The notes beneath the pieces were generated by a model. The model did no database searches. It saw only the letters and a list, made by a program, of their open reading frames with translations, and was not told where the DNA came from. A program made the translations under genes and the position numbers. Positions 5,407-20,965 of a DNA stretch of 64,000 nucleotides are shown one piece after another (position 1 is the stretch's first letter; each line of letters starts with the position of its first letter). Source of the DNA: an uncultured Phycisphaeraceae bacterium (lineage in GTDB: Bacteria > Planctomycetota > Phycisphaerae > UBA1845); contig CAZMVD010000007.1 of the NCBI GenBank assembly GCA_964569425.1, positions 1,477 through 65,476 on the forward strand, in the 5' to 3' direction.

Positions 5407-7527
5407 ATGTTTCCAAGATCCGAGCGCATGTTCGCGAAGGCCGGCTCGATGTTTGCATTGCTGGTCGGGTTGATGGGGTTCGGTGCTTCGCCGCTGGTGG
5501 GCGTTGCGCAGGAGTCGCCCCCGACACCGCGACAGGCGCCGCGGGTCCGCAAGCAGGCGTCGCCGCCGCGGACCACGCCGCAGCCGAAGACGCCGTCGCC
5601 CGAGCCGGAACCTTCGAACGATGGTGCGGAGACTCCTGCGGAGCCGGTGCCGGATTCGCCGGACAAGGTTGTGATTCCGCCGGAAGTTCAGAAGAAGATC
5701 GATGAGATGCTGCAGGAGAAGCCCCAGCCTGCGGACGAGCCGGAACCGGCGGTCCAGCCCGCATCGAAGACACCGCAGCAGATTGCTGCGGAACGGGCCG
5801 AACAGCGACGGCAGGCGCGGTTGCGTGCGACAGGCCAGCAAGATGACCAGGCGACCACGCCGCCGCAGCCCGGCGCGCACCTGGCTCCGAATCCGTTTGC
5901 GGGGGGAGGGCAACCGTCGAGGCCTGGGACGCAGGCGCCGGGTAACAAGATCGAGATTCCGGCTTCGACCGAACGTGCGTCACCGCCGGAGCAGCGCAAG
6001 TATTCGTTCAGCATCAAGGACGCGGGGTATGACGTGCTGATCGAGGGCATAGCGCGCGAGACGGGGCTGGGGGTGATCGGCGAAGCGCCGCCCGACGGGA
6101 AGGTGACGTTCGTGACGGAAGAGCAACTGACATTCGATCAACTTCTGGACCGGGTGCGCATGTTGCTTTTCAACTACAAGCCGCTGGAACCGTACTGGCT
6201 GCTGCGCCGTACCACGCACCTGGAAGTCATCCGCGTGAATGACTATCTGCGGGTGATGCCCGCGGACCGGATGTTTCGGGGCGTTGCCGAGTTTCGGTCG
6301 GCCGCGCTGCCTCCGTCGGAATTGGTGCTGGTGATTTTCACACCGACCACCGGGGCGCTTTCGGAACTGAACCAAGTGCGCGATTTCATGCCGGATTATG
6401 TGCGCGTTACGCCGCTGGACGATCAGAATTCGGTGGCGATCTACGCGCTGGTGAGCGACGTGGAGAAGTACCTGTGGCTGGTGGACTTTTTCACGGGGCG
6501 CAAAGGCGACCCGCGCAAGCTGGAGATCATCGAGGTCAAGTTCATTACGCCGACGGAGGCGAACGAGAAGCTTATGTTGCTGATGTCGGCGGATGCGACC
6601 AAGCAGCCGGGACGTGCGGCTGCGATGCCGCGGGTGCGTCCCGGTGGGCCGAGCCCGTTGGACGGCATACCTGCGCCGGAGGTGAGCATCGTTCCCGAGG
6701 ATGCGCAGGGTGTTCTGATCGTGCGGGCGATGCAGGACAAAATCGACGAGATCAGGCGGTTGCTTCCTTATGTAGACGTGAACACGACGGTTAACTACCT
6801 GCCGGTGGTGATCCCGGTGCGGAATACCGATCCGCAGGCCTTGGTGGGCACGGTGCAGCAGATTCTGGGTGCGGGGGATCCTTCGACGGGGATGCCGGTT
6901 CCGGGGGGAGCGCGTCCCGTTCGGCCTCGTCGGGGCGGCCGGGCTCCGGCGGGCGCCGCTGCGTCGGTGTCGGCGGCGGACGTCACGCTGATACCGCATC
7001 CGTCCATTTCGGCGATCATCGCGACGGGTCCGGACGAGGCGGTGCAGCGGGTGCGCGAGCTGGTTCAGCTCTTTGACGTGAAGGGACAGGTGGGGCCGCT
7101 GCGGATCGCGCTGACCCATACCGATGCGGACACGGCGGTGTCGACGGTGACGCAGATCCTGCAGGGTGCGGTTCCGGGGACGACGACGCGCGGCGTTCCG
7201 ACGGGTGCCATATCGGTGTCACAGGTGGTGCCGGATCCTTCGGGTACGGCGATCTGGTTTACGGGATCGGAGAAGGATCTGGAGCTTGCGAAGCGGGTGC
7301 TGGCGGACATTGACGTGGCGGTGGAGCCGGCGCGGCTGCACATCGTACGGCTGGTGAACCAGCGGCCATCGTTTGTGGCGGCGATTCTTTCGCAGGTGGA
7401 CAGCGGGCAATTGAGTCCGTCGGCGACGCCGTCGCCCACCACGCGGGGGGGGGGGGCGGCGGCGACCGGTGGCGGCACCGGCGGGCCAGCCGGGTGGCGC
7501 AGCAGGGAAGTTTACGCCGGACGATGA
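5407..7527 (+). CDS. Barrel-less secretin N-domain array protein, 5' segment; probably one gene with 7469..14377
   Basis: ATG 5407 gives a signal peptide (MFAKAGSMFALLVGLMGFGASPLVGVAQE). The ORF-track start at 5056 would overlap the upstream gene by about 250 nt. Pro-rich spacer, N0/STN-like module (YSFSIKDAGYDVLIEGIARETGLGVIG..GKVTF..LTFDQLLDRVRMLL), then about 5 secretin N-domain-like units. The frame ends 70 nt after a G12 run. Confidence 0.7.
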   Translation: MFPRSERMFAKAGSMFALLVGLMGFGASPLVGVAQESPPTPRQAPRVRKQASPPRTTPQPKTPSPEPEPSNDGAETPAEPVPDSPDKVVIPPEVQKKIDEMLQEKPQPADEPEPAVQPASKTPQQIAAERAEQRRQARLRATGQQDDQATTPPQPGAHLAPNPFAGGGQPSRPGTQAPGNKIEIPASTERASPPEQRKYSFSIKDAGYDVLIEGIARETGLGVIGEAPPDGKVTFVTEEQLTFDQLLDRVRMLLFNYKPLEPYWLLRRTTHLEVIRVNDYLRVMPADRMFRGVAEFRSAALPPSELVLVIFTPTTGALSELNQVRDFMPDYVRVTPLDDQNSVAIYALVSDVEKYLWLVDFFTGRKGDPRKLEIIEVKFITPTEANEKLMLLMSADATKQPGRAAAMPRVRPGGPSPLDGIPAPEVSIVPEDAQGVLIVRAMQDKIDEIRRLLPYVDVNTTVNYLPVVIPVRNTDPQALVGTVQQILGAGDPSTGMPVPGGARPVRPRRGGRAPAGAAASVSAADVTLIPHPSISAIIATGPDEAVQRVRELVQLFDVKGQVGPLRIALTHTDADTAVSTVTQILQGAVPGTTTRGVPTGAISVSQVVPDPSGTAIWFTGSEKDLELAKRVLADIDVAVEPARLHIVRLVNQRPSFVAAILSQVDSGQLSPSATPSPTTRGGGAAATGGGTGGPAGWRSREVYAGR
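7445..7456 (+). repeat. G12 homopolymer tract at the frame break between ORFs 5407..7527 and 7469..14377
   Basis: Twelve consecutive G counted at 7445-7456, the longest G run I saw in the window. The upstream ORF is in frame 1 and the downstream ORF in frame 2, so a tract of 11 G (or 14) would fuse them. Confidence 0.95.
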
Positions 7528-10500
7528 GCAGGGTCGGCTGTACGTGCTGTGCACGGACTCGGAGTGGGAGGCGTACGGTAAGGTCATTTCGGATCTGGAG
7601 AATGAGACGGCGCTGCGCGAGTTTGTGCTCTTGCCGGTCAAGAACATTCCGGTGGACGAAGCGCTGAACAAGATCGCGGCGTTGATTCCTTTGAGTGCTG
7701 CCGGGGTGGCGACGGCGCCGGGGGTCGCCGGCAAGGAGGCGACCAAGATCCGCTGCGAGACGACGGCGGACGGAATCCTGGTCCTTGGGGCTAACGAGAC
7801 AGAGATTCAGTCGATGCGGGAGCTGCTGGCGGTGTTCGATCATGCCAGCGACATCGAAGAGCGGACGTTTGAGATCAAGTTCGCCGACCCGGCGGAGGTG
7901 AAAGCCGCGGTAGAGGCGTTGTTGACGGAGGGGCCGGCTACCACGACGCCGACTGCGGGGGCGCGGCGCGCGCGCGGCGCGGCGCCGCGTGATCCGTCGT
8001 TGGGCGCAGCGTCCACGGCGGCGCTGACCATCGTGCAGGTGGACACGCGGCTGATCGTCAAGGCGTCGCCGTCGGTCATGCAACAGGTCGCTGCTTACAT
8101 CGAACAGTTCGATGTCCGCGCCGACAAGCGGACGGTGCGGGTTTATGAGAATTTTCCGCCCGGAGCGGATATTGACGCCATCGCCAGCACGCTTTCGACG
8201 GTGTTGGGGGGGAGCAGTTCGCGCGGGGCGGCGGCGCCGCGGCCCACCGCTCGGCAACCGGGCAGTGCGCCGAGCGGTCCGGAGGGTCCGCAGTTCATCC
8301 CGCAGCCGGCGACGGGCAAGCTGATTGTCATTGCGCAGCCGTTCATGTTCGAGGAGATCGAAGAGCTGCTGAACATGCTGCGGAAGACGGAGGTGACCGA
8401 GCCCACTTTGGTGGAGTACGTGCCGATCAAATATGCCGATCCGACCGAGTTGGTGCAGAGCATTGAGCCGATTCTGACGGTCAAGGTTCGTAATCTCATC
8501 CGGTCGGGTGAAGTGACTGAGTCCATGGTTGAGGATCCGGCGGCGGGGGGCGTGCGGGCGCCGCGGGTTCGGGTTCCGGGGGCGGCCACATCAAACGACC
8601 GACCGTATCACCTTGCGGCGGATGTGCGTAACAAGCGCGTGGTGGTGGTGGCGACGCGGAAAATCATCGACGCGGCGAAGGAGTTGATCGGCGATTTCGA
8701 CACGCGGGCGGAAGTGCCCGGGGTGGTGTTCGAGTTTATCGAGGTCAAGCACGTGGATCCGGCGCAACTGGTGGAGCAACTGGATCCGTTGCTGGCGTTG
8801 AAGGTTCAAGAACTGGTGCGCGGGGGCGAACTTGCGGATGAGCCGGACGCCTCGGCCCCGGGGGGTGCGGCCAAGGGGGCGGTGCGCATGCCCGGCCGGC
8901 CGATCCTTGATTCGCGGCAGCGTTACCACATCGCGGCCGACGAGCGCAACCGGCGGATCGTGGTGGCGGCGGCGCAGCCGGTGGTGGATGAGGCGCGGTC
9001 GCTGGTGGCGATGTTCGACAAGCCGGACAGCAAGGACACGCGCATTGAGGTGCGCACCGTGGCGATGCAGCACGGGGATCCGGTGGAGGTGGCGGAGAAG
9101 ATCGAGCCGCTGCTGTCGATGAAGGTTCAGCAGTTGGTGTACGCGGGCGAGTTGGCGGAGGAGGGCGGCGTGACGGCAACGCCCGGCGCCGTAACCCCGG
9201 GGCGGCCGCTGAAAATGCCGCGGGCCGGGGGGGCCAGCAAGCGATACCACATGGAGCCGGACCAGCGGAACAAGCAGATTGTTATTGCGGCGCCGACGGC
9301 GGTGATCGACGAGGCGGTCAAGCTGATTGCGGAGTTTGATAAGCCGTCGGATGCGTCCAAGCTCGTTTTCGAAACCGTGGTGCTGCACAACGCCGACCCC
9401 AATGACATGGTCAAGACCATCAAGGAGATGATCGGCGCTCCACAGCGGGCGGTGACGACCCGACGACCGGGGGTGCCGGCCGCGCCGGTGCCGGAGGCGA
9501 TTCTGACTTCGTCGCTGGCCATCGCCGCGGCCCCCGGCGGGGGGGCGGTGGTGCTTCAGGGTCCGGCGGAAGAGGTGGCGCAGGCGAAGGAATGGGTGGG
9601 GCATCTCGATTCCATGGCGACCAGCGGTCGGCAGATCAAGATTTACGAGATCAAGTACGCCGACACCAAGACGCTGGTGGACATCATCATGAACGTGGTG
9701 GATAGCGCGAGCCGCGAGGCTCCGAAGCGCGGCGCGCTGCCTCGCGGGCTGGGCAAGGAGAGCGAGGAGGAGGACTTTTTTGAGACTTCGATCACCCGGA
9801 TCGGCAAGGATGTGTACATCAAGGCGGATTTGATCGCGGACACGATGGTGGTGGTGGCCGGTCCGGCGAAGATCACCGAGGTGGACGCGATCATCGCGCA
9901 GATGGACACCAAGGAGACGGAGGAGGTCACCAAGAAGCCGGTGGTGCCGCGTGAATACATCGACCTGCAATACGCGACGGCCAGGGACGCGGCGGACGCG
10001 CTGGATGCGATTCTGAAGGACCGATGGGAATCGAGCGAGGATCGTCCGAAGGTGACCACGGGGTTGTTCGGGGAGACGCTGATCGTGTCGCACCCGGACG
10101 AGTCGCGGCTGGCGGAAGTACGCGAGCTGGTGGCGACGCTGGTGGACAAGCCGGACCCGAAGAAGTTCCGTGAGACGCGGCGCATGATCACGTCGCCGTC
10201 GAACATTCCGCCGCGCGATCTGATCATGATGCTGCAACTCAACAATCCGGACATTGAGTTCGAGCTGATCGACGGTACGCCGCAGGACGAGGACAAGTTT
10301 ATTATCGAGCGGGTCAAGGCGCAGCCACCGCCGCCGGCGGTGAAGCCGCAGGCCGAGGGGCGGCGGCCGGCGCCGGCCGGTTCGCCCCAAGCGGACGCCG
10401 GTTCTGCGTTGATCCCTGCGCCGCTGCGCGTTGCGGCGACTGCGGTGTTGTGTGCGGCGCTGGCCCAGGTGCCGGAGGGGGCGGAGCCGGAAGGGGTACC

Positions 10501-13500: not shown

Positions 13501-14377
13501 GGTGATCCGTTTGGAAAACGCCGACGCGGCGGCGGTGGCCAAGACGCTGGACGAGATCTTTGTGAAGTCCGCGCCAAAGTCGGCCGGGGCGCAGGCGCCG
13601 CCGATTTCGATTTCTGCGCTGGAGGGGTCGCGGGCGGTGGTGGTGAAGAGCAAGCCGGAGGATTTCACGCGGATCGAGGCGGCGGCGAAGGCGATGGACA
13701 GCCGTGACGCCCTGGCCGACGCGCCCAAGATCATCCTTCTCCAGCATGCCCGGGCCGATCAAATCGCGCACATGCTCCAGCAGACGTTTGAGCAGCAGCG
13801 GGGCGGCGGGCGGGCGAGCAAGTCGCCGCCGACGGTGGTGGCCAACGAGCAGATCAACGGTCTGGTGGTGCGGGCCGAGCCGGCGGACCTGGCGGGCATC
13901 GAGAGCCTGGTTGCGCAGCTCGACAGTGACAAGATTCCGCCGCAGTCGCGGTTCAAGGTTATTGAGCTGGACGCGGGTGTGAACCTGGCCGACCTGGCTG
14001 AAAAGGTAGAGCTGACTATCAACGAGGCGGCCAAGGCGCAGGTGCCGCCGGGCAGTCGGCAGGCGCCGCCGAGCATCACGGTCATGGCGGACGCACGGAC
14101 CGGCATGCTGATCGTGGGCGGGTCGCCCTCGTTGTTTGCTGATGCTGAGGAGATGGCCAGGACGATTGTAGATAAGGGACCGAAGGGCAACACGGTCACT
14201 TCGATCTTCAAGCCGCAGAACGTGGCGGTGGAGGATATTCAGCGGTTGATCGACCAGTTGACGAACCCGGAGGCCGCGAGTGAGAGCGGGCGGCGAAGTG
14301 GCAGCGGTAGCGGCACGCGCGGGGGCACGACACGTCCTACGAGTCGGCCAAGACCGCGTACGACCCCGCAGCGTTGA
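7469..14377 (+). CDS. Barrel-less secretin N-domain array protein, 3' segment (about 23 tandem N-domain units, central acidic/Lys and Gln-rich spacers, no secretin C-domain)
   Basis: 2302-aa ORF with no signal peptide of its own. Recurrent unit: beta-alpha (e.g. VEYVPIKYADPTELVQSIEPIL, IRIYRVRYIDVFTAQDILEEMF, VRTIKIKYADAYAIQEAIGKLF), a variable linker, then hxxDxRTNxLhV..xxhxxhxxLIxxLD (e.g. VIATADANSNSVVVSASSDNQRRVEELIATLD). Ends with a half unit (VTSIFKPQNVAVEDIQRLIDQL) and a Ser/Gly/Arg/Pro tail. Confidence 0.75.
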   Translation: MAAPAGQPGGAAGKFTPDDEQGRLYVLCTDSEWEAYGKVISDLENETALREFVLLPVKNIPVDEALNKIAALIPLSAAGVATAPGVAGKEATKIRCETTADGILVLGANETEIQSMRELLAVFDHASDIEERTFEIKFADPAEVKAAVEALLTEGPATTTPTAGARRARGAAPRDPSLGAASTAALTIVQVDTRLIVKASPSVMQQVAAYIEQFDVRADKRTVRVYENFPPGADIDAIASTLSTVLGGSSSRGAAAPRPTARQPGSAPSGPEGPQFIPQPATGKLIVIAQPFMFEEIEELLNMLRKTEVTEPTLVEYVPIKYADPTELVQSIEPILTVKVRNLIRSGEVTESMVEDPAAGGVRAPRVRVPGAATSNDRPYHLAADVRNKRVVVVATRKIIDAAKELIGDFDTRAEVPGVVFEFIEVKHVDPAQLVEQLDPLLALKVQELVRGGELADEPDASAPGGAAKGAVRMPGRPILDSRQRYHIAADERNRRIVVAAAQPVVDEARSLVAMFDKPDSKDTRIEVRTVAMQHGDPVEVAEKIEPLLSMKVQQLVYAGELAEEGGVTATPGAVTPGRPLKMPRAGGASKRYHMEPDQRNKQIVIAAPTAVIDEAVKLIAEFDKPSDASKLVFETVVLHNADPNDMVKTIKEMIGAPQRAVTTRRPGVPAAPVPEAILTSSLAIAAAPGGGAVVLQGPAEEVAQAKEWVGHLDSMATSGRQIKIYEIKYADTKTLVDIIMNVVDSASREAPKRGALPRGLGKESEEEDFFETSITRIGKDVYIKADLIADTMVVVAGPAKITEVDAIIAQMDTKETEEVTKKPVVPREYIDLQYATARDAADALDAILKDRWESSEDRPKVTTGLFGETLIVSHPDESRLAEVRELVATLVDKPDPKKFRETRRMITSPSNIPPRDLIMMLQLNNPDIEFELIDGTPQDEDKFIIERVKAQPPPPAVKPQAEGRRPAPAGSPQADAGSALIPAPLRVAATAVLCAALAQVPEGAEPEGVPPPEEEEEIEPEPELSQAQLDAMLRQAQEALIRQGVQPKESPEKKKSEGEKSEEQERSKSIGKEFKGQKIKAVIDTKTGAVTLIGPEGVVEQIPDLIKEVEEQLKDAPAPPDIRIYRVRYIDVFTAQDILEEMFNATRQQMAQVQAAQRQAQQMAIQQQRAAQQAAQQAARQQERGGEGQQPGRQPQQPQPVPIPELPATAVRVYPNPRDRTLILRADTNQYPAIEELLATIDQPKPYDNLYRVIPLKKLNATDVEALLRDWLGLDESKARSGARGPRGASPEASGAGGQLPKTIVQETKTGVVELGVDPQDIKISSNLETNSILVMAPQAALDYVEELIADLESQDVAKREWKSYQLQHADVEEVADYLATRINQGRPGAGATRGKGAPGGSADGGGSLNTASFIPYPRLQMLSVQATAEQIAEVDKLIVELDVPAGGENFQSVVLAHADAKLVADTLDSMFGGGGGARGARGAAPTASAVAKFIGEEGGRVLFFSAPERLHERIHVVIKDIEEQSQGRDQLRVIQLQYARASMVADAIDSAYGAGRRTGAARGKGAAGGGARVSVTASDATRQLFVMTDDAMFAEVESLVKSLDTERGIGFDFRIYPLKHADARAVYTTMNKLITDYLRRLPPQTPIDPFSVEVDDKANALVVLGSPTIFGFVEDSLKTIDTPANAPSPPGVLMVVLKTADATEVAQNINRLWSTKIKEGEVPPTAEANRTLNMVIVRGTQKQIDDIRSQVIDPLEQQAAAQLLTETITLKHALAEDVAESLTRIFDDKRKALQTTGGRGPGGAASPLDLAVVVTPLVNTNQVVVQANEANLGFIKERIAQLDLPEFADTAVTTTKVYAAVAADPNAVVNMIREWSRTQQQTAGANRRMSQKDVIVAVADPLTQTVIVTASESNHQRVKEMIDGLDAESGEVKPTVRTIKIKYADAYAIQEAIGKLFRGDGRNPREQVIATADANSNSVVVSASSDNQRRVEELIATLDAPDAAQRDVQVIRLENADAAAVAKTLDEIFVKSAPKSAGAQAPPISISALEGSRAVVVKSKPEDFTRIEAAAKAMDSRDALADAPKIILLQHARADQIAHMLQQTFEQQRGGGRASKSPPTVVANEQINGLVVRAEPADLAGIESLVAQLDSDKIPPQSRFKVIELDAGVNLADLAEKVELTINEAAKAQVPPGSRQAPPSITVMADARTGMLIVGGSPSLFADAEEMARTIVDKGPKGNTVTSIFKPQNVAVEDIQRLIDQLTNPEAASESGRRSGSGSGTRGGTTRPTSRPRPRTTPQR

Positions 14378-14404
14378 CACTACGCCGCCGCGTTGACGGG
14401 ACCG

Positions 14405-14623
14405 CTTCCCCCTTTCCAAGGGGGGATACAGGGGGGTTGGCATGGGCGGCGCGCCACCGCCTTCAGCGTTTCGGCAGCCGGGGGCGTTGGCCAAGCGCAG
14501 AGTTTTCGCCGTCGGCGCTGTTTCGCCTCCAGTGAATCGGCGCTGGAGGCGGTAGGTATCGCGCGAGGTCTTCGCGGGCGACGCAACCTCCCCCTGCCCC
14601 CTCCTTGGTAAGGAGGGGGGAAG
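14405..14623. repeat. MITE-like element: imperfect ~40-bp terminal inverted repeats, each containing a C5/G5 hairpin, around a structured core
   Basis: Left arm 14405-14440 cttccccctttccaaggggggatacaggggggttgg. The reverse complement of right arm 14585-14623 is cttcccccctccttaccaaggagggggcagggggaggttg. Internal 9-bp stem cgcctccag(14524-14532)/ctggaggcg(14543-14551). No credible ORF inside. Confidence 0.6.
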
Positions 14624-14949
14624 TGAGGCGGCGTCTTGGGAGCGCAACGTGGAGCGTCGAGCGCACCTGTACGGTGCGTATCGGCAAAGAACTTATCCCC
14701 ATGACTGAATCGCGGGCGTCCGCGCGGGCTGCCCTTGACGCTTCGCGTAAAGGGGAGCAAGCCCGCGGCGCGCGTCGATATTGGGATAGGTCCTGAAGTG
14801 CGTATTGGCGAAAAATCACAGCCCCCGTTCGGTGGGGCGGAGGGCGGGTATTTTTTCGGTTACCGGCGAGCGCCGGTCGGGTATCATACGGCGCGGCGAC
14901 CGTGTCGCGGGCCGGATCTGAGAGTCGGGCGAACCAGGGGACAGAACGG

Positions 14950-17900
14950 ATGAACGCGAAGCGAATGGAGACGCGATCGAGGAGTCCGCGCGGCCGCAGA
15001 ATGACATTGGCAGCCGCGTGGTGTATCGGGTTTGCCCTGACGGTTGGGTCGAGCCGCGCGCAGACTGAGCCCACCCCGCCGCCGCGGGAGCAGTCTCCGG
15101 CCGGGGAGCGGCCTGCGCAAGAAGACGAACGCCGCCAGCCCGTGCACGTGCCGGCTGCGCCGGCGCCCGATCGAGTGAGCGAGCTTATCGGCCGGTTGGA
15201 TCCGCAGACGCTGAGCCGGCTGGTGGGGGCGGATATCAAGGTCGAGTTCGTCGGCGGGCAGGTGATCCTTCAGGGGCCGGAAGAGGCGGTCAAGACGCTG
15301 GAGTTGATGATCAAGGCGCTCGACGCCGAGGTGGAAATGCCCGAGGTGCGGGTGGTGACGGTCAGCGAGCGCGACGCGAAGGAAATCGCACGCACGGTGC
15401 AGGAGGCACTGCGCATCGTATTGGATCGCGAGAATCAAAGAGAAGTAGAGCAGGTTACATTGACGGCGCTGACGTCCAACATCCTGCTGGTCTCGGCGCT
15501 TGCCGACGACATCGACTTCGTCCTTTCCGTCATCGATGATGTTGACTCGGTTCCTGATCCGTTGGGCAAGATCGAACTCATGCGCTTCGAGGTGAAGAAC
15601 CGCCGCGCCAGCGACGTGGCCAAGGAGCTGCAGAAGGTCTTTGAGCAATTCCAGAAGGCGCAGGGGATGCCGCTGGACAAGAGCAAGCTCCAAATCATTC
15701 CCAACAACGCCAACAACACCATTACGGTGACGGCGCGGGAAAACGAACGCGAAAAGATTGAGGCGCTGATCGCCAACATCGACGTGGCGCCGACGCCCGG
15801 CTGGGGCGAGGTCAAGCTGACCATTTATCCGCTGTTGCACAGCAAGTCCGCTGATCTGGCGAAGGTCATCGAGGACTTGCTCCAGGCGCAGGCCCGGCAG
15901 GGTCAGGCGCGTGAGGCGATGGAAGAGTTCATCTTCCGCCTGCGGATCAGCAAGGCCAGCCCCACCGGCGAACTGACCGAACTGCCGCCCATCGACCTGC
16001 AGAAGCCGACGCGGATCATTCCCGATGACGGCACCAACAGCCTGATCATCGCCACCGTCGAGGAAAACGTCGTTCCCATGGGTGAACTGATCCGCCTGCT
16101 CGACGGCGTGCCCACCGGCGAAGCGATTCATGCGCGGCTGTTTCCCCTGCGCTTTGCCGATGCCGAGACGGTGTCCGAGGCGCTCAAGAAGATGTTCGAC
16201 GAAGGAAAGACATTGCCAGAGGATCCGGACGGCAGCGCGCAGGACGCGGTTCCGGGTACGCCGACCGGCAAGGCGTTGGTGTACAACGTGTCGGTGGTGG
16301 CCGACGTGCGCACCAATACCATTATCATCGCGGGTCGGGACGAGCAGATTCACCTGGCCGAGACGGTGATCGGGCAGCTCGACCAGCCCGCGCGGGCGCT
16401 GAAATTCCCGCTGCGATTGGTGCCGCTGGACTATGCGGACGCGACGCGGGTGGGTCAGTTATTGACCGAGCTTTTCACGAAGCGTCTGGAGGCGGCCGAG
16501 GCGACCAACGCCGGGAAGGCGGCGGTGGAGCGGGAGCGGGTGTTTTTGAGCGTGGACATTCGCAGCAATTCGCTGATCGTCTCCGCGTCGGAGGAGAACT
16601 TCGACGAGATGGTGTCGATCGTTGACCAGTTGGACAGCCGGCCGACGAAGCTGTTCGACCAGATCCGCCTGGTGTTGTGCAATCGGATCTCCGCGGTCGA
16701 CGTGAAGACCAAAATCGACGAGTTGTGGAAGCGCAAGGCGGAACTGCGGCGCACGCAGGAACTGCTGGAAGATCTTCCGGTGGTGGTGGCGGACGAGCGC
16801 AGCAATGCGCTGGTGGTGGCGGCGAGCCTGGAGGACTATGAGGAGATCAAGCGGCTGGTGGATGCGCTGGAGGCGCAGCCGCTGATCGACGACACGCAAC
16901 TGTTCAAGCTGCAATATGCGGATGCCAACCTGCTGGCCGACATGCTTGACAAGCTGTTCGACGGCATCGCTTCCGCGTCTGAGACGTTCAAGAAGCCCAC
17001 GCTGCTGCCGGACGTGCGGACCAACGCCATCGTGGTGGCGGCGACGCGCGACGCCATGGAACGGGCGGCGGACCTGATCCGCCGGCTGGACGTGGAGGCC
17101 GGCCCGCAGTCGGCGCAGATCAAAGCGTATCCGCTCAACTACGGCTCGGCGGCGAAGATGGCACCGCGCATGCAGAAGCTGTTCGACGCGCGGGCGGAGG
17201 GTCAGGACGCGGCGCGCAGCACGCCGATTGTGATTCTGGCGGAGGAGTCGTCCAACACGCTGGTGAGCAGCGCTTCGCGCGACGATCACGACGTGATTGC
17301 CGAACTGCTTGGCGTGCTCGACAAGCCGTCCAACATCGCGCGGCAGTTTGAGATATTCCCGCTCAAGCGCGGCAAGGCGGCGCGGGTGGCGGAGAAGCTG
17401 GAGCAGCTTTTCGCCACGCAGGTGGAGGGCGGCTCGGGTCGGGCGGACGCCATCGCGGTGCAGGCGGACGAGCGCACCAACGCCATCATCGTCTGGGCTT
17501 CGCCGTCGGAGATGCTCAACATCGGCGAGGTGATTGCGCGGCTGGACACCGCGACGCCCGCGGTGGAGATGATGGTCAAGGTGATTCAGCTCAAGCAGGC
17601 GCTGGCGCAGGACTTTGCCACGCTGCTGGAGGAGACACTGGTGGGCGAGGGCGGGGGCGGGGACGATGAACGGGCGGTGATCGTTTCGTTTCTGGAGAAG
17701 GACGCGCAAGGGCGGGAGATCGAACGCAAGCTGCTGAAGCAGGACATCAAGATCAAGCCCGACCCGCGGACCAATTCGCTCATGGTGTTCGCGCCGGCGG
17801 ACAGCATGTCGATGCTGGAAGCGATGATCGTCGACTTCGACCGCATTCGCCCGATCCGTTCGGAGCTGCGGTTGTTTCCGCTGATCAACAGCGACGCGAA

Positions 17901-19446
17901 GACGATGGTGGAGAAACTGACCAACCTGTTCAAACCCACGGAAGGGGGGGAGGGCGAAACCGCGCGGCAGTTCAGTTTCGGTGGTGCGTTTTCCGACGTC
18001 GAGTTTGCCAGCGTGGGTCAGGAACTGCGTTTTGAAGCGGATGAGCGCACCAACACGATCATTGCGGCGGGGGCGGAAATCGACCTGCGGATGATCGAGG
18101 AACTGGTCCGCTATCTTGATGCGCAAGAGGCGGAAGACCGGATGACCGGGGTTTATCAGGCCAAGTTTCGGCCCGCGTCGGACATTGCCCAGGCGATCAA
18201 GGGGTTCAATGAGCAGGAGCAAAACGTTTTGGGGGAGGGGGACGACATGGAGGCGCGCCTGCGGCGACAGGAGCGGCAGGTTTCGGTGGAGGCGGTGGGC
18301 GACGTGGAGAAGGGGAGTAGCAGTCTGCTTTACGGCACGAGCCGCAAGAGTTACTCACGGACGATGGAGATGATCGAGCAGATCGATCGTCCCGAGCCGC
18401 AGGTGATGATATCGGTGCTGATCGCGGAGGTCACGCTGAGTAACAACGTGGAGCTGGGCATTGAGATCGCGGGCCAGGAGCTGGACTTTTCGCGTGGGGC
18501 GGTGGTGGGTCCCAACGGCGTGATTCAGGGCAGCGACTTCGACTGGATCAGCGGGACGGACCTGGGCGCCGCGGGCGTGGGGCTGGGTGGGTTCAACTTT
18601 ACGATTACGGGGGAGGATTTCAGTTTCCTGCTTCACGCCCTGCAGGCGGACAGCCGTCTGGAGGTGCTTTCCCGCCCGATCCTTATGGTTCGCAACGGCG
18701 AGGAGGGCAAGATCACGATCGCGGACGAGGTGCCGATTGTGGAGTCGTCGCAGCAGAGCGATACGGGATCGGTGCGGTCCAACATTACGCGGCAGGACGT
18801 GGGCATTGTGCTTACCGCCACGCCGCACATCAGCCCGGACGGTTACGTGACCATCAAATTGACGCAGGAAATCTCCAACATCAGCGGCGACACGCTGCAG
18901 CTTACCGAAGGCGTGACTTCGCCCATATTCTCGAAGCGCGAGGTGGATACGAACGTTACGGTGCGCGACGGGGAGACGGTGATCATCGGCGGACTGATTC
19001 AGTCGCGCGATTCGCAGGGAGAGAACAAGGTGCCGATCCTGGGCGATATTCCCTATCTGGGGGTGCTGTTTCGCTCGACCAGCGTGAGCAAGTCGCGTAC
19101 GGAGTTGATGGTGGTGCTGACGGTTGACGTGCTGCGGACCGACGCCGACGTGCGCGACATGTCGGTCACGGAACGCGATCGGTTCATGTTGCCTGATAAC
19201 ATTCTGCAATCACCGTTCATGCAGGGGTTACGCATTCTGCCGGAGGAGTCATCCCTGGGACCGGTGTCGCCGAAGGCGCGCCCGGGTTCGCCGGCAGCGC
19301 CGCGTCCTGTTGAACAGCCGGGTTCGCCTGCTGGTCGGCCGCGCATTTACGGGCCGGCAATTTCAAGGCCGGCCGCGGCGGATACGGTGCGCGCCCCGGT
19401 GTACGGTCCGCCCGTGGTGCGTAAGGAGCCGGAGTTACTGCCCTGA
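14950..19446 (+). CDS. gspD: Secretin (GspD/PilQ family) with about 12 N-domain units and a C-terminal beta-barrel secretin domain
   Basis: Signal peptide RRMTLAAAWCIGFALTVGSSRAQ (start could be 14950, 14965 or 15001). N-domain units such as ARLFPLRFADAETVSEALKKMF...VVADVRTNTIIIAGRDEQIHLAETVIGQLD. Secretin domain VMISVLIAEVTL...LEVLSRPILMVRNGEEGKITIADEVPIV...GIVLTATPHISPDGYVTIKL...VRDGETVIIGGLIQ...KVPILGDIPYLGVLFRS. Confidence 0.9.
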   Translation: MNAKRMETRSRSPRGRRMTLAAAWCIGFALTVGSSRAQTEPTPPPREQSPAGERPAQEDERRQPVHVPAAPAPDRVSELIGRLDPQTLSRLVGADIKVEFVGGQVILQGPEEAVKTLELMIKALDAEVEMPEVRVVTVSERDAKEIARTVQEALRIVLDRENQREVEQVTLTALTSNILLVSALADDIDFVLSVIDDVDSVPDPLGKIELMRFEVKNRRASDVAKELQKVFEQFQKAQGMPLDKSKLQIIPNNANNTITVTARENEREKIEALIANIDVAPTPGWGEVKLTIYPLLHSKSADLAKVIEDLLQAQARQGQAREAMEEFIFRLRISKASPTGELTELPPIDLQKPTRIIPDDGTNSLIIATVEENVVPMGELIRLLDGVPTGEAIHARLFPLRFADAETVSEALKKMFDEGKTLPEDPDGSAQDAVPGTPTGKALVYNVSVVADVRTNTIIIAGRDEQIHLAETVIGQLDQPARALKFPLRLVPLDYADATRVGQLLTELFTKRLEAAEATNAGKAAVERERVFLSVDIRSNSLIVSASEENFDEMVSIVDQLDSRPTKLFDQIRLVLCNRISAVDVKTKIDELWKRKAELRRTQELLEDLPVVVADERSNALVVAASLEDYEEIKRLVDALEAQPLIDDTQLFKLQYADANLLADMLDKLFDGIASASETFKKPTLLPDVRTNAIVVAATRDAMERAADLIRRLDVEAGPQSAQIKAYPLNYGSAAKMAPRMQKLFDARAEGQDAARSTPIVILAEESSNTLVSSASRDDHDVIAELLGVLDKPSNIARQFEIFPLKRGKAARVAEKLEQLFATQVEGGSGRADAIAVQADERTNAIIVWASPSEMLNIGEVIARLDTATPAVEMMVKVIQLKQALAQDFATLLEETLVGEGGGGDDERAVIVSFLEKDAQGREIERKLLKQDIKIKPDPRTNSLMVFAPADSMSMLEAMIVDFDRIRPIRSELRLFPLINSDAKTMVEKLTNLFKPTEGGEGETARQFSFGGAFSDVEFASVGQELRFEADERTNTIIAAGAEIDLRMIEELVRYLDAQEAEDRMTGVYQAKFRPASDIAQAIKGFNEQEQNVLGEGDDMEARLRRQERQVSVEAVGDVEKGSSSLLYGTSRKSYSRTMEMIEQIDRPEPQVMISVLIAEVTLSNNVELGIEIAGQELDFSRGAVVGPNGVIQGSDFDWISGTDLGAAGVGLGGFNFTITGEDFSFLLHALQADSRLEVLSRPILMVRNGEEGKITIADEVPIVESSQQSDTGSVRSNITRQDVGIVLTATPHISPDGYVTIKLTQEISNISGDTLQLTEGVTSPIFSKREVDTNVTVRDGETVIIGGLIQSRDSQGENKVPILGDIPYLGVLFRSTSVSKSRTELMVVLTVDVLRTDADVRDMSVTERDRFMLPDNILQSPFMQGLRILPEESSLGPVSPKARPGSPAAPRPVEQPGSPAGRPRIYGPAISRPAAADTVRAPVYGPPVVRKEPELLP

Positions 19447-19529: not shown

Positions 19530-20108
19530 ATGAACTGGTCCGACACCATGAAGTTGGGACATCGTCGTATTGGGCTGCTGGTCGGGGTCGCTGCGGGTTT
19601 GTTGTTGTCGACAGCCTGCGTCTCTTCGGACCCTGCGCGCGGCAAGTCCGGGGGGGCCGAGAGCCGGTCGCGCGCTTCGCGATCTTCGCGGCACGCGGAT
19701 TTGCCGGTGCGTCAGGTGGTCTGCATTTATGAACAGCGCCCGTGGTTAAACCTCGATGCATCGGGCGACCGAGACCCCGAAGGTCTGCGATACCGTGCCT
19801 TTCTCGATGCCGGCGCGACGCGCGGCGAATTGCGGAACGGGATGTTCCACGTCGAGCTGTATGTGGTCGAGCGGGATGCCACCGGGGCGATCGCCCGAAG
19901 ATTGGTCAGTGACTGGCACTTTCCCACCGAGGAGGTCAACACGGTTAATTCCGGGCTGCTGGGGCGCGGTTACCATATACAGCTTCGGTGGGCCACGAAG
20001 GCGGTTGCCGGCAAGGAGATCGAGATTATTACGGTCTTCGAGGATAGCGAGGGGCGAAAGACCCGTTCGGGCACCAAGCGTCTCAGGGTTCCCAGGTATA
20101 CCTCCTGA
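19530..20108 (+). CDS. Hypothetical lipoprotein downstream of the secretin
   Basis: Signal peptide with lipobox (RRIGLLVGVAAGLLLSTAC). 84 nt after the secretin stop. Its stop overlaps the next start (TGATG at 20106-20110). Confidence 0.6.
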   Translation: MNWSDTMKLGHRRIGLLVGVAAGLLLSTACVSSDPARGKSGGAESRSRASRSSRHADLPVRQVVCIYEQRPWLNLDASGDRDPEGLRYRAFLDAGATRGELRNGMFHVELYVVERDATGAIARRLVSDWHFPTEEVNTVNSGLLGRGYHIQLRWATKAVAGKEIEIITVFEDSEGRKTRSGTKRLRVPRYTS

Positions 20109-20965
20109 TGTCGGTGCGGCGCGATGTTGCCGAGTTTCCGCGCACGGCGCCGGCAACTCTTGGCGTGCTGATCTGGCTGCTGTTCGTGGCGGTTTCGTGC
20201 CATCGACCGCCCGAAGCCGTGGAAGCGCCATTGCCGGGATTGGGTGCGACGGCAGGCGGCCCATTGTTGTCGCCGGCCGGAACGGTGCGCGAGGTGCGCC
20301 GCCACCTCGCGGAGGACCGCCTGACGGAAGTTGAGAGGTTTCTGCTGCCCGGACAGCGCGGTGAAGTGATGGCGCTGCTTCGGGCGGTTCGAGGCGTGGC
20401 GGGCTCCAACGAATCGCTGCAATCGGCGGTTCGGGAGCGCATGGGTCGCGCTGCCGCGCGGCGGGTTGATCGTTCGCAGGTCGTCAATGCGGTGGGCGTT
20501 TTTTCGCGTGACGTGGCGGTGATCGATGAGCGCACCGACAATGGAACGGCGGTGGTGACGATCCAGGTTGCCGGCCGCCTGCCCCTTGAACCGGTCCGCC
20601 TGGTTCGCACGCCGCCGGGGTGGCTGATTCAGACGGATGCGCCCGTTGCCGGCCTGGCGGATGAGCTTCGTGCGCTGGGCAAAGTTCTGCAGGATTTGGC
20701 GCGCATGGTGCAAGACACAGAGATGACAGTCGAAGAACTGGAGCGTGAGCTGCGAGTGCGCGAGGCGGCGGTGGGCCGCCGCATTGCCACGTTGCTGGCG
20801 TCGCCCCCGTCGCCCCGTCCCAAATCCCCGGGACAATCTGGTCTCTGGTCGGCCCCATGCGGTTTCGCTAGCGGGAGCGGGATTTCGCCGATAAAATGGC
20901 ATTGGGCTCTGCCGTGTCGGCAAGCCATTTGCTGCCATGCTGGTTGCACGGGAGACCCTTATTGA
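20108..20965 (+). CDS. Hypothetical lipoprotein
   Basis: Lipobox LIWLLFVAVSC. Translationally coupled to the preceding lipoprotein gene. The body looks like ordinary globular protein sequence. Confidence 0.55.
   Translation: MSVRRDVAEFPRTAPATLGVLIWLLFVAVSCHRPPEAVEAPLPGLGATAGGPLLSPAGTVREVRRHLAEDRLTEVERFLLPGQRGEVMALLRAVRGVAGSNESLQSAVRERMGRAAARRVDRSQVVNAVGVFSRDVAVIDERTDNGTAVVTIQVAGRLPLEPVRLVRTPPGWLIQTDAPVAGLADELRALGKVLQDLARMVQDTEMTVEELERELRVREAAVGRRIATLLASPPSPRPKSPGQSGLWSAPCGFASGSGISPIKWHWALPCRQAICCHAGCTGDPY

What the first reader, a model, noticed from the sequence alone, without database searches (positions are those of the whole stretch)
5407..19446. Two-gene 'mega-secretin': a ~3,000-aa barrel-less secretin N-domain array encoded just upstream of a 1,500-aa secretin
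The product of 5407-14377 (two ORFs, see the G12 finding) has a signal peptide, a Pro-rich spacer and an N0/STN-like module. It then carries about 28 (by-eye count) divergent copies of the secretin N-domain unit: beta-alpha 'hxhxxLxxxDAxxhxxxLxxhh', a linker, then 'hxxDxRTNxLhVxAxxxxhxxhxxLIxxLD'. It ends with no secretin beta-barrel. The barrel (VLSRPILMVRNGEEGKITIADEVPIV, KVPILGDIPYLGVLFRS) is on the next gene, which has about 12 more units. Canonical GspD/PilQ carry about 3-4 N-domains on the same chain as the barrel. A separate N0-bearing N-domain polymer in the PilP/GspC position (after the GspL- and GspM-like genes) is not part of the T2SS/T4P models I know. It could stack into a very long periplasmic conduit or scaffold across an enlarged periplasm.
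Basis: partly seen in the sequence, partly recalled or inferred. Interest (0 to 1): 0.85.

Follow-up and report, generated by a model that had tools for sequence, protein, structure and literature searches.

The report
Split giant type II secretin
A Phycisphaerae (Planctomycetota) type II secretion operon encodes its outer-membrane channel protein as two genes, a 2,989-residue chain of about 28 periplasmic ring domains with no pore and a 1,514-residue chain with 12 more domains plus the pore; together that is about seven times more ring domains than the largest characterised secretin I found in the literature.

Summary
The two ORFs at 5407-14377 are one gene broken by a +1 frameshift in a G12 run (7445-7456). 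A 92%-identical relative has an intact 2,992-aa ORF. The repaired 2,989-aa protein has a signal peptide, a Pro-rich spacer and an N0-N1-N2 module whose predicted fold matches XcpQ/GspD. Counting N1 and N2, it has about 28 Secretin_N units and no barrel. The next gene has 12 units plus a GspD-type barrel but no N0.

The array is not a GspC/PilP substitute. It is the N-terminal part of a split GspD. Giant barrel-bearing secretins of 4,100-5,500 aa exist among its relatives. One 4,642-aa example occupies the same operon slot, and read-through forms align colinearly with array plus secretin.

The gene pair recurs in about 23 Phycisphaerae/Planctomycetota species genomes. The gene boundary always cuts one unit in two. 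The array ends in beta1-alpha1 plus a basic tail. The secretin starts with a signal peptide, a spacer and beta2-beta3-alpha2. This suggests the chains join by re-forming that domain.

Co-assembly, ring stacking and channel length are inferred. Nine full-text searches found no description. I rate it a new variant of a known kind, interest 0.74.

The parts
120..1961 (+). GspK-like minor pseudopilin gene (613 aa) with an N-terminal hydrophobic segment and a long Gly/Ser/Pro/Glu-rich insert
   Evidence: Pfam T2SSK_1st E 2.5e-11, T2SSK and HHH_3. NCBIfam T2SS_GspK scores 90 bits, below the 130-bit cutoff. Hydropathy.
1951..3564 (+). GspL-like gene (537 aa): cytoplasmic PilM/actin-like domain, TM helix at aa 360-387, periplasmic C-terminal part
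   Evidence: Pfam PilM_2 E 1.9e-21. NCBIfam pilM scores 87.5 bits, below cutoff. TM segment by hydropathy. Same position in L001-L004.
3618..5303 (+). GspM/PilO-like bitopic protein (561 aa): TM at aa 10-30, long helices, ferredoxin-like domain, PKD/Ig domain, Pro-rich linker, conserved six-strand beta domain (aa 338-400), disordered tail
   Evidence: AF2 model, mean pLDDT 73.6. Foldseek hit to PilO 3jc8_Oa, E 1e-5. NCBIfam GspM weak at 19.8 bits but aligned over aa 15-174 to nearly the whole model. Pfam PKD. 41 homologues found.
5407..14377 (+). Array gene: the N-terminal part of a split GspD. It gives 2,989 aa after removing one G and is read as two ORFs in this assembly (5407-7527 and 7469-14377).
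   Evidence: P0001 is 92% identical over 100% of the query and is one 2,992-aa ORF. 111 of 113 relatives of 2,300-3,600 aa lack a barrel.
5407..5511 (+). Sec-type signal peptide of the array (MFPRSERMFAKAGSMFALLVGLMGFGASPLVGVAQ)
   Evidence: Hydropathy peak at aa 8-35. Read by eye; no signal-peptide predictor was available.
5512..5991 (+). Pro/Glu/Gln/Ala-rich low-complexity spacer of about 160 aa between the signal peptide and N0
   Evidence: Sequence. Not covered by any domain hit.
5989..6816 (+). N0-N1-N2 module (aa 195-470): N0 at about aa 200-277, divergent N1-like unit at about aa 307-365, first HMM unit at aa 372-461
   Evidence: AF2 mean pLDDT 87.4. Foldseek against PDB: XcpQ N0-N1-N2 5mp2/4e9j E 3.6e-10, ETEC GspD 3ezj E 1e-8, PulD 6hcg TMq 0.57. 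Pfam itself finds no N0 here.
6520..10159 (+). First block of Secretin_N units (aa 372-1584): 12 HMM units plus one degenerate unit at aa 736-817
   Evidence: Own iterated HMM. Degenerate unit scores 17.5 bits over HMM positions 5-71.
7445..7456 (+). G12 homopolymer that causes the +1 frameshift. It lies in the alpha1-beta2 loop of unit 4 (aa 644-735, nt 7336-7612).
   Evidence: The 93%-identical DNA of L001 reads GCGGGGGG here, 4 nt shorter and in frame. Repaired protein versus P0001.
10160..10534 (+). Conserved mid-array linker (aa 1585-1709): a small alpha/beta piece, a hydrophobic stretch of about 20 aa (family motif N-P-C-V-L-P-L-A-F...G-Q), then an acidic/Pro-rich spacer. Function unknown.
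   Evidence: Largest inter-unit gap in nearly all family members examined. Hydropathy peak at aa 1664-1689.
10535..14167 (+). Second block of 14 Secretin_N units (aa 1710-2920). The first is weak and has a long charged loop; the next has a poly-Gln loop.
14189..14266 (+). C-terminal half unit of the array (beta1-alpha1, NTVTSIFKPQNVAVEDIQRLIDQLTN)
   Evidence: Matches only the beta1-alpha1 part of the unit HMM (from position 3), at 11.7 bits. An equivalent half unit is present in 23 of 25 array C-termini examined.
14267..14374 (+). Basic Ser/Gly/Arg/Thr/Pro-rich disordered tail of the array
   Evidence: Sequence. A basic low-complexity tail is present in nearly all relatives examined.
14378..14901 (.). 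524-nt spacer between array and secretin genes, with a perfect 10-bp hairpin at 14597-14619. The last ~90 nt are nearly identical in L001.
   Evidence: No consensus promoter and no + strand terminator found. No Rfam hit.
14902..19446 (+). Barrel-bearing secretin gene (1,514 aa from the GTG; the real start may be an internal Met). GspD type, without N0.
   Evidence: Pfam. NCBIfam TIGR02517 GspD scores 623 bits against a 351-bit cutoff, with the best stretch on model positions 117-600. PDB sequence hits: GspD 5wq7 E 4.6e-42, PulD 6hcg E 7e-41, versus PilQ about 1e-25.
15001..15063 (+). Signal peptide of the secretin (MTLAAAWCIGFALTVGSSRAQ), followed by a Pro/Glu-rich spacer at 15064-15231
   Evidence: Sequence read by eye. 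The hydropathy scan did not reach its threshold here. The same layout occurs in the downstream ORFs of the other loci.
15232..15333 (+). N-terminal half unit of the secretin (beta2-beta3-alpha2, DIKVEFVGGQVILQGPEEAVKTLELMIKALDAEV)
   Evidence: Matches only HMM positions 38-72, at 10.5 bits. A half unit is the first element in 24 of 25 secretin N-termini examined. Joined to the array half unit it gives one full-length hit over HMM positions 3-72, 22.3 bits.
15343..18399 (+). 12 Secretin_N units of the secretin chain (aa 148-1166)
   Evidence: Pfam finds 10 stretches.
18637..19134 (+). Secretin beta-barrel/gate domain (PF00263, aa 1246-1411; my own barrel HMM covers aa 1166-1427)
19530..20965 (+). 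Two predicted lipoprotein genes (19530-20108, lipobox LLSTAC; 20108-20965, lipobox FVAVSC). Candidate pilotin or accessory proteins; their membership in the system is uncertain.
   Evidence: Sequences and conservation in L001. No Pfam or NCBIfam hit.

Best explanation
The locus encodes the secretin (GspD) of a Phycisphaerae type II secretion system. The secretin is gigantic and is split between two genes.

Gene 1 (5407-14377) is one gene. In this assembly it is broken by a +1 frameshift in a G12 run. The frameshift is most likely a homopolymer error or a slippage variant, not two real proteins.

Its 2,989-aa product is exported to the periplasm. It starts like any GspD with N0-N1-N2, continues to a total of about 28 Secretin_N (beta-alpha-beta-beta-alpha) units counting N1 and N2, and ends in the first half (beta1-alpha1) of one more unit plus a basic disordered tail.

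Gene 2 (14902-19446) has its own signal peptide and spacer. It then has the missing second half (beta2-beta3-alpha2), 12 full units and the outer-membrane barrel.

Proposed mechanism (inferred):
- Both chains oligomerise with the same symmetry.
- The array's N0 end docks on the inner-membrane platform (GspL-like, and the GspM-like protein with a C-terminal beta domain).
- The array's C-terminal end joins the periplasmic end of the barrel chain, plausibly by re-forming the bisected unit in trans.
- Together the two chains form one very long periplasmic channel or scaffold under the outer-membrane pore.

Shown here: domain content, the N0-N1-N2 fold, absence of a barrel in gene 1 and of N0 in gene 2, operon context, conservation of the pair, single-chain relatives, and the half-unit boundary.

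Inferred: co-assembly, trans-complementation, ring stacking, channel length and secretion function.
For: (1) One gene. The frameshift falls inside unit 4. P0001 (92% identical, 100% coverage) is a single 2,992-aa ORF. L001 DNA is 4 nt shorter at the run and in frame.

(2) Domain content. Pfam finds Secretin_N at E 3.9e-160 with no Secretin barrel in gene 1, and a barrel only in gene 2. The unit map leaves no room for a barrel. My barrel HMM is negative on the array.

(3) N-terminus. The AF2 model (pLDDT 87.4) matches XcpQ/GspD/PulD N0-N1-N2 (E 3.6e-10, probability 1.0).

(4) Operon. GspF, GspG, three minor pseudopilin-size genes, GspK, GspL-like, GspM-like, array and secretin occur in that order in L001 and L004.

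(5) Single-chain relatives. L003 has one 4,642-aa secretin with 49 units and a barrel at the same place in the operon. W_sec aligns colinearly to its C-terminus (28% identity over 1,348 columns, E 1e-105). Read-through forms P0085 and P0105 are colinear with array then secretin.

(6) Conservation. 32 loci in species-representative genomes are all Phycisphaerae or Planctomycetota MAGs (apart from two records titled only 'uncultured bacterium'). In about 23 of the 27 with downstream DNA, the array ORF is followed by a unit-rich ORF. Among 233 collected relatives, 111 of 113 proteins of 2,300-3,600 aa lack a barrel and 87 of 92 above 3,600 aa have one. 394 clusters at 50% identity reach E<=1e-30.

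(7) Boundary. A beta1-alpha1 half unit is present at 23 of 25 array C-termini. A beta2-beta3-alpha2 half unit is present at 24 of 25 secretin N-termini. The halves are as conserved as neighbouring full units (0.38 vs 0.41 and 0.49 vs 0.52 mean pairwise identity). A chimera of the two halves gives one full-length HMM hit.

(8) Gene 2 is GspD-type. TIGR02517 scores 623 bits against a 351-bit cutoff, with the best stretch on model positions 117-600. PDB GspD hits are at E 1e-42 versus about 1e-25 for PilQ.
Against: - No direct evidence that the two chains bind each other, form rings or stack.
- About 41 rings would be well over 100 nm if each is about 3-4 nm, scaling from Thermus PilQ (350 A for six rings plus the secretin domain, PMC5745081). 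No such structure has been reported, and Phycisphaerae are said to lack the endomembrane system of other planctomycetes (PMC12673574).
- The window copy is frameshifted as sequenced, so in this organism it could be inactive.
- No GspE, GspO or PDZ-type GspC is in the window or the fetched flanks.
- One complete MAG (CP070744.1) has the array followed by a 766-aa unit-only ORF with no barrel at the locus.
- The half-unit HMM scores are low (about 5-20 bits), and the unit HMM was trained on the family itself.
- The GspC-HR/PilP nature of the beta domain in the 3618-5303 product could not be shown.
Confidence: 0.72

Rival explanations
1. The array is an independent periplasmic protein built from secretin N-domains. 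It would act as a flexible tether, scaffold or substrate-handling platform for the T2SS. It would not form a coaxial stack of rings continuous with the barrel chain.
For: - Long disordered spacers sit at both N-termini.
- Many units have long loops.
- A conserved hydrophobic and acidic mid linker interrupts the array.
- A 40-ring stack would be implausibly long if rings are about 3-4 nm each (scaled from PMC5745081).
- The two genes are separated by 524 nt and may be expressed at different levels.
Against: - The N0-N1-N2 fold of a true GspD sits at the array's N-terminus, while the barrel chain has no N0.
- One continuous chain carrying a barrel fills the same operon slot, and 87 of 92 collected relatives above 3,600 aa carry one.
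- The boundary bisects a domain, and both halves stay conserved.
Confidence: 0.15
2. In this organism the array gene is truly inactivated, or switched OFF by slipped-strand mispairing in the G12 tract. The window would then show a pseudogene or a phase-variable locus rather than a working gene.
For: - G12 gives a +1 frame as sequenced.
- No 100%-identical array protein is in the 5.8-billion-protein collection, although the neighbouring gene's product from the same source is (P0121). This fits annotation as a pseudogene.
- Long G tracts are classic slippage sites (general knowledge).
- Other assemblies also carry interrupted copies (L021, L022, L031).
Against: - ORF2 stays open for 2,302 codons after the shift with all units intact. 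No decay is visible, which argues for a very recent event or an error.
- The close relative has no long tract there (G6), so a dedicated switch is not conserved.
- Homopolymer indels are a common assembly error.
- A G12 is not strongly unexpected on this G-rich strand (rough estimate about 0.3 per 64 kb from composition).
Confidence: 0.12
3. The array replaces GspC/PilP. This is the first reader's framing: a new N0-bearing polymer in the GspC position that links the inner-membrane platform to a conventional but long secretin.
For: - Gene order: it follows the GspL-like and GspM-like genes, where GspC or PilP-like genes can lie.
- No PDZ-type GspC is seen in the locus.
Against: - No HR or PDZ domain is present. 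Its N-terminus is GspD N0-N1-N2 by fold.
- The barrel gene itself lacks N0 and begins with half a unit.
- Single-chain forms show the array is the front part of GspD.
- The preceding gene has a conserved C-terminal beta domain that could supply the GspC-like contact. This is untested.
Confidence: 0.04
4. Assembly chimera or mis-join of repeats.
For: The gene is long and repetitive, in a metagenome-type contig with a homopolymer frameshift.
Against: - The same gene pair, with the same order of unique landmarks (N0 module, mid linker, poly-Gln unit, half-unit ends), occurs in dozens of independent assemblies, including complete MAG chromosomes.
- The units are divergent in sequence, not near-identical repeats.
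Confidence: 0.01

Closest known systems
T2SS secretin GspD (E. coli/Vibrio GspD, Klebsiella PulD, Pseudomonas XcpQ)
   Same: - Same barrel family: TIGR02517 above its cutoff, best PDB matches 5wq7, 6hcg and 5wq8.
- Same N0-N1-N2 fold at the N-terminus.
- Same kind of operon, with GspF, G, K, L and M-like genes.
   Different: - About 41 Secretin_N units instead of three (N1-N3).
- N0 and the barrel are on different polypeptides.
- There are long Pro-rich spacers after both signal peptides and a conserved hydrophobic/acidic mid linker.
- No GspC, GspE or GspO is at the locus.
Thermus thermophilus PilQ (six stacked N rings, 350 A long; PMC5745081, PMC4463427)
   Same: It is the precedent for extra beta-alpha-beta-beta-alpha N-domain rings that let a secretin span a wide periplasm.
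   Different: - It is a T4P/DNA-uptake secretin on a single 757-aa chain with six rings. The authors call it one of the largest characterised.
- Here there are about 41 units on two chains, or 49-61 units on one chain in relatives.
Mitochondrial T2SS-derived system of some protists: GspD plus separate GspDN1-3 (PMC8134430)
   Same: - The secretin gene is split. The barrel part and the Secretin_N part are separate polypeptides.
[quoted passage not shown]
- GspD and GspDN1 interact in yeast two-hybrid.
   Different: - That system is eukaryotic and mitochondrial, with single or half domains and highly diverged sequences.
- Here the system is bacterial and operon-encoded, with a 28-unit array that keeps N0 and a boundary that bisects one specific unit.
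Single-chain giant secretins of other Phycisphaerae (e.g. P0111, 4,642 aa, CP060234.1; up to 5,532 aa)
   Same: Same operon slot, same unit type and the same GspD barrel. These are the continuous equivalent of array plus secretin.
   Different: - One polypeptide, with a compact N0 directly after the signal peptide and 49-57 units without long loops.
- As far as I could find, these are also uncharacterised.
Legionella DotD and other stand-alone secretin-N0-like proteins (PMC2951367)
   Same: A secretin periplasmic-domain fold on a protein that has no barrel.
   Different: It is a single-domain lipoprotein of a type IVB system. It is not a repeat array and not part of a split GspD. I did not examine it further here.

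Membership tests
T2SS secretin GspD (applied to gene 2, 14902-19446) | C-terminal secretin beta-barrel/gate domain (PF00263; TIGR02517) | tested here: met
   PF00263 E 2e-47 at aa 1246-1411. TIGR02517 scores 623 bits against a 351-bit cutoff. GspD structures are the best PDB sequence matches.
T2SS secretin GspD (applied to gene 2, 14902-19446) | N0 domain at the N-terminus of the same chain | tested here: not met
   After the signal peptide and spacer, the first element is a beta2-beta3-alpha2 half unit. The best TIGR02517 stretch covers only model positions 117-600.
T2SS secretin GspD (applied to gene 2, 14902-19446) | Secretin_N (N1-N3 type) periplasmic domains | tested here: met
   10 Pfam stretches and 12 units with my own HMM. 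This far exceeds the usual three.
T2SS secretin GspD (applied to gene 1, the array, 5407-14377) | C-terminal secretin beta-barrel | tested here: not met
   No PF00263 hit at E<=0.01. My barrel HMM is negative. The unit map leaves only a 69-aa tail. The TIGR02517 score of 481 bits for ORF2 comes from 17 repeated matches to the N-domain part of the model, not from a barrel.
T2SS secretin GspD (applied to gene 1, the array, 5407-14377) | N0-N1-N2 periplasmic module | tested here: met
   AF2 model (pLDDT 87.4) against PDB: XcpQ N012, GspD N012 and PulD, E 3.6e-10 to 1.8e-07 over about 265 aligned columns. Pfam's N0 model does not detect it, but it weakly detects N0 in single-chain relatives (P0089 E 1.4e-5).
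T2SS secretin GspD (array + secretin taken together as one split protein) | The two chains assemble into one oligomeric channel | not testable with these tools
   Only indirect support: single-chain relatives, colinear read-through forms, and conserved complementary half units.
Type II secretion system (operon level) | Core genes GspD, E, F, G, minor pseudopilins, K, L, M, C and O | tested here: inconclusive
   - Present in the window: K-like, L-like, M-like and D.
- Present upstream in L001-L004: F, G and three genes of minor-pseudopilin size.
- Not found in the window or the flanks: E, O and PDZ-type C.
- The rest of the genome could not be searched.
   The array has a cleavable-type signal peptide and N0-N1-N2 followed by Secretin_N units. 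It has no HR or PDZ domain.
GspM / PilO (gene 3618-5303) | Bitopic protein: N-terminal TM, coiled helix, ferredoxin-like periplasmic domain | tested here: inconclusive
   TM at aa 10-30. The AF2 model shows helices plus an alpha/beta domain. Foldseek hits PilO 3jc8_Oa at E 1e-5. NCBIfam GspM scores only 19.8 bits against a 60-bit cutoff, though it aligns over nearly the whole model. The extra PKD and beta domains are not part of GspM.
Type IV pilus secretin PilQ | PilQ-type barrel (TIGR02515), usually with AMIN or beta-sandwich N-terminal domains | tested here: not met
   TIGR02515 scores 256 bits, below its 284-bit cutoff and far below the GspD score. No AMIN domain found.
Phase-variable contingency locus (G12 tract) | Homopolymer tract within the coding sequence whose length varies between cells or strains and switches the frame | not testable with these tools
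   The tract is present and out of frame. The one close relative has an interrupted G6. No reads are available.

The most novel reading that the evidence does not exclude
The two polypeptides are joined non-covalently by trans-complementation of one bisected Secretin_N domain: beta1-alpha1 from the array C-terminus plus beta2-beta3-alpha2 from the secretin N-terminus. The assembled homo-oligomers would form a single stack of about 41 rings, more than 100 nm long, from the inner-membrane platform to the outer-membrane pore. That would be by far the longest secretin conduit known. It would require a T2SS pseudopilus or piston mechanism that works over that distance, or a different mode of substrate passage.
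Probability: 0.3. Interest if true: 0.9.

Novelty: new variant of a known kind. Interest (0 to 1): 0.74.

Why it matters
Secretins are among the best-studied outer-membrane machines. The models for T2SS, T3SS, T4P and phage export assume about 2-6 periplasmic N-domain rings on the same chain as the barrel.

This locus belongs to a large uncharacterised family in Phycisphaerae (hundreds of clusters at 50% identity). In this family GspD carries about 40-60 such domains. In one lineage GspD is cut into a barrel-less 3,000-aa array and an N0-less 1,500-aa barrel chain, and the cut falls in the middle of a domain.

If the chains co-assemble, three things follow:
- It gives a natural example of a protein channel built by fragment complementation.
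- It sets a new upper bound for secretin length.
- It asks how a pseudopilus 'piston' could work through such a conduit, and what the envelope of these uncultured planctomycetes looks like.

It also has a practical use for annotation. Barrel-less 'GspD' hits above the TIGR02517 cutoff (ORF2, 481 bits) are not complete secretins, and homopolymer frameshifts in these giant genes are common in MAGs.

Tried and rejected
- Alignment A1 (33 sequences) was too diverse for the locus scan. I redid it with 11 closer sequences (A3).
- An exact look-up of P0121, to identify the window's source contig, found no record. The cluster listing gave no names. The source organism is therefore known only by its relatives, which are Phycisphaerae/Planctomycetota MAGs.
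- The whole-chain Foldseek search of the 3618-5303 model was dominated by Ig/PKD hits. A profile of its C-terminal beta domain found nothing among PDB sequences. Its GspC-HR/PilP likeness stays untested.
- One literature search was spoiled because 'secretin' also matched 'secreting'. The other eight found no description of giant or split secretins in Planctomycetota, and follow-up reading added none.
- Rfam on the whole window gave 0 hits.
- The promoter/terminator scan of the array-secretin spacer gave nothing usable on the + strand.
- A three-gene arrangement, with the array split again, was considered because L021 has an in-frame TAG and P0171 and P0271 end in the same loop. I rejected it as unproven. 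The part after the stop in L021 has no signal peptide, and low-complexity loops may simply break assemblies.
- A 'relic signal peptide' reading of the mid-array hydrophobic stretch was considered. No beta1-alpha1 half unit is detectable in front of it, so it is left unexplained.
- I treated the 'class B' single-chain forms (P0085, P0086, P0105) as read-through fusions of the pair, not as ancestral continuous genes. They keep the basic tail and an internal signal-peptide-like stretch, and P0086 also has a random-looking translated spacer.
- L003 and L004 did not appear in the script sandbox. Comparisons with L003 were done with protein comparison instead.

Full report
**Observation check.** The + strand carries long ORFs at 5056/5407-7527, 7469-14377 and 14902-19446.
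- Pfam finds Secretin_N (PF03958) in all three: E 1.3e-23 with 3 stretches, E 3.9e-160 with 16 stretches, and E 9.6e-113 with 10 stretches.
- The secretin barrel (PF00263, E 2e-47, aa 1246-1411) is found only in the third.
- The start at 5407 fits the N-termini of the closest homologues.

**One gene, not two.** A G12 run sits at 7445-7456.
- Removing one G joins the two ORFs into a 2,989-aa protein.
- The junction lies inside one unit. Unit 4 spans aa 644-735, with beta1-alpha1 in ORF1 and beta2-beta3-alpha2 in ORF2.
- The best database relative, P0001, is 92% identical over 100% of the repaired protein and is a single 2,992-aa ORF.
- Its DNA (L001, 93% identical locally) reads GCGGGGGG at this spot, 4 nt shorter and in frame.
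- The repaired window protein differs from P0001 there by one extra Gly.
- No 100%-identical array protein is in the 5.8-billion-protein collection, although the neighbouring gene's product is (P0121). This fits the source record treating the gene as frameshifted.
- ORF2 shows no decay. A homopolymer error or a recent slippage variant is therefore most likely. Without reads I cannot tell which.

**Anatomy of the array.** I built a unit HMM by iterating from one unit over 120 family proteins.
- It finds 26 contiguous units with 2-10 residue linkers.
- One further degenerate unit lies at aa 736-817 (17.5 bits, HMM positions 5-71).
- The uncovered pieces are aa 1-371, a conserved mid linker at aa 1585-1709, and a 69-aa tail.
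- The HMM was trained on the family, so the counts are self-consistent rather than independent. Pfam's own thresholds give 19 units in the array and 10 in the secretin.

**The N-terminal module.** An AF2 model of aa 195-470 used 33 homologous sequences and reached mean pLDDT 87.4. It shows N0, a divergent beta-alpha-beta-beta-alpha domain, and HMM unit 1.
- Foldseek against PDB returns XcpQ N0-N1-N2 (5mp2, 4e9j; E 3.6e-10), ETEC GspD N0-N1-N2 (3ezj) and PulD (6hcg, TMq 0.57), with about 265 aligned columns.
- The array therefore begins exactly like a T2SS GspD.

**The secretin.** It has a signal peptide, a spacer, a half unit, 12 units and the barrel.
- It is GspD-type. TIGR02517 scores 623 bits against a 351-bit cutoff, versus PilQ below its cutoff. 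The best PDB sequence matches are GspD and PulD.
- It has no N0.

**Context.**
- In the window, the upstream genes are GspK-like, GspL-like (PilM_2 domain plus a TM helix) and a 561-aa protein.
- The 561-aa protein has a GspM/PilO-like N-terminal part. NCBIfam GspM is weak but aligns over nearly the whole model, and Foldseek hits PilO at E 1e-5.
- It also has a PKD domain and a strongly conserved six-strand beta domain. I could not assign that beta domain.
- In the close relative L001 and in L004 the operon reads GspF, GspG, three genes of minor-pseudopilin size, GspK, GspL-like, GspM-like, array, secretin.
- No GspE, GspO or PDZ-type GspC is in the window or these flanks.

**It is a split GspD.** In the complete MAG chromosome CP060234.1 (L003) the same operon has one 4,642-aa gene, with 49 units and a barrel, where the window has two genes.
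- The window secretin aligns colinearly to its C-terminal 1,284 residues (28% identity, E 1e-105).
- Other single-chain proteins (P0085, P0105, P0086) are colinear with array followed by secretin.
- These keep the basic tail and an internal signal-peptide-like stretch at the junction. I read them as read-through fusions of the pair.

**Distribution.**
- Among 233 collected relatives, 111 of 113 proteins of 2,300-3,600 aa have no barrel (median 26 units).
- 87 of 92 proteins above 3,600 aa have a barrel (median 44 units, up to 57; the highest count, 61, is in P0176, which lacks one).
- An exhaustive profile search finds 394 clusters at 50% identity with E<=1e-30. Part of that score comes from the generic unit included in the profile.
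- A scan of one genome per species found 32 loci. All but two (titled only 'uncultured bacterium') are named Phycisphaerae or Planctomycetota MAGs.
- In about 23 of the 27 loci with downstream sequence, the array ORF (about 2,560-3,270 codons, stop to stop) is followed within a few hundred bases by a second ORF full of units.

**The boundary bisects a domain.**
- The array ends with NTVTSIFKPQNVAVEDIQRLIDQLTN, which matches only the beta1-alpha1 part of the unit model (aligned from position 3). A Ser/Gly/Arg-rich tail follows.
- After its signal peptide and spacer, the secretin starts with DIKVEFVGGQVILQGPEEAVKTLELMIKALD, which matches only positions 38-72 (beta2-beta3-alpha2).
- The same holds for 23 of 25 array ends and 24 of 25 secretin starts in the window and other loci.
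- The half units are about as conserved between species as the adjacent full units (0.38 vs 0.41 and 0.49 vs 0.52 mean pairwise identity).
- Joined together, the two window halves give one full-length hit (HMM positions 3-72, 22.3 bits).
- A half domain on each side is most simply explained by fission of a continuous gene within a long alpha1-beta2 loop. That both halves are retained suggests they still fold together.

**Mechanism (inferred).**
- Both chains are exported.
- The array N0 end contacts the inner-membrane platform, possibly through the beta domain of the GspM-like protein.
- Both chains oligomerise.
- The array C-terminus and the secretin N-terminus re-form the split unit, making one long periplasmic channel or scaffold under the barrel.
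- Scaling from Thermus PilQ (six rings plus the secretin domain in 350 A, PMC5745081) gives about 3-4 nm per ring. About 41 units would then exceed 100 nm. That is a reason for caution.
- The domains may not all stack. Phycisphaerae are also reported to lack the endomembrane system of other planctomycetes (PMC12673574).

**Comparison with what is known.**
- The barrel and N0-N1-N2 place the system in the GspD family. The array alone fails the barrel criterion and the barrel chain alone fails the N0 criterion. Only the pair satisfies the definition.
- Thermus PilQ, with six rings, is described as one of the largest characterised secretins (PMC5745081).
- A split GspD with separate Secretin_N polypeptides, including half-domain proteins, has been described only for the mitochondrial T2SS-like system of some protists (PMC8134430).
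- Nine full-text searches and follow-up reading found no description of giant or split secretins in Planctomycetota.
- Public records carry only automatic names such as 'secretin N-terminal domain-containing protein'.
- The library does not cover subscription-only papers, so prior description cannot be excluded.

**Verdict.** I rate it a new variant of a known kind. Interest is 0.74. The most novel surviving reading is trans-complementation joining the chains into a conduit of more than 100 nm, at probability about 0.3.

Noticed in passing
window 19530-20108 and 20108-20965 (+): Two predicted lipoproteins (lipoboxes LLSTAC and FVAVSC) lie directly after the secretin and are conserved in L001. 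Neither has a Pfam or NCBIfam hit. They are candidate pilotins or accessory proteins.
   Followed up: partly
window 10160-10534 (array aa 1585-1709): A conserved mid-array linker. It has a hydrophobic stretch of about 20 aa (family motif N-P-C-V-L-P-L-A-F...G-Q, degenerate in the window), then an acidic/Pro-rich spacer, then a beta-beta-alpha half unit. This layout resembles the start of the secretin gene. It could be a fossil gene boundary or a functional helix.
   Followed up: partly
L002 / L023 (CP070744.1), L002 19302-24388: In this complete MAG chromosome the 3,077-aa array is followed by a 766-aa Secretin_N-only ORF with no barrel, and the next gene is DUF4349. The barrel is missing from the locus.
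   Followed up: partly
L021 14072-14074; L022; L031: Other assemblies also carry interrupted arrays. L021 has an in-frame TAG in the poly-Gln loop of the unit after the mid linker. L022 and L031 are truncated at about 530 and 1,520 aa with no units downstream. L031 is a second locus in the same MAG as L007.
   Followed up: partly
window 14378-14901: The spacer between array and secretin is unusually long at 524 nt. It has a perfect 10-bp hairpin (14597-14619), also present with changes in L001. Its last ~90 nt are nearly identical in L001 and contain a T6 run followed by a TTACCG...TATCAT-like stretch. This might be a terminator plus a promoter.
   Followed up: partly
window 105-113: A second long homopolymer (G9) lies just upstream of the GspK-like start codon at 120. 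By analogy with L001 it falls inside the 3' end of the preceding minor-pseudopilin gene.
   Followed up: no
window 3618-5303: The GspM-like protein carries extra PKD and beta domains. The beta domain has the motif GDEFDGGELVFVHPRGG...YFVYPIG and is nearly invariant across 38 homologues. The protein ends in a disordered tail of about 130 aa.
   Followed up: partly
window 7469-14377 (ORF2): ORF2 scores above the curated cutoff of the GspD equivalog model TIGR02517 (481 vs 351 bits). The score comes purely from 17 repeated partial matches to the N-domain part of the model. This is an annotation trap for barrel-less arrays.
   Followed up: yes
window 20896-64000: The rest of the window looks like ordinary housekeeping: an RNase D-like gene, a 1,184-aa TPR protein (- strand), IF-2, NusA, a Ser/Thr kinase with CHASE2, an FHA-SpoIIE phosphatase, CitMHS and OPT transporters, and a DnaJ-like gene. 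There is no GspE and no Rfam hit.
   Followed up: partly
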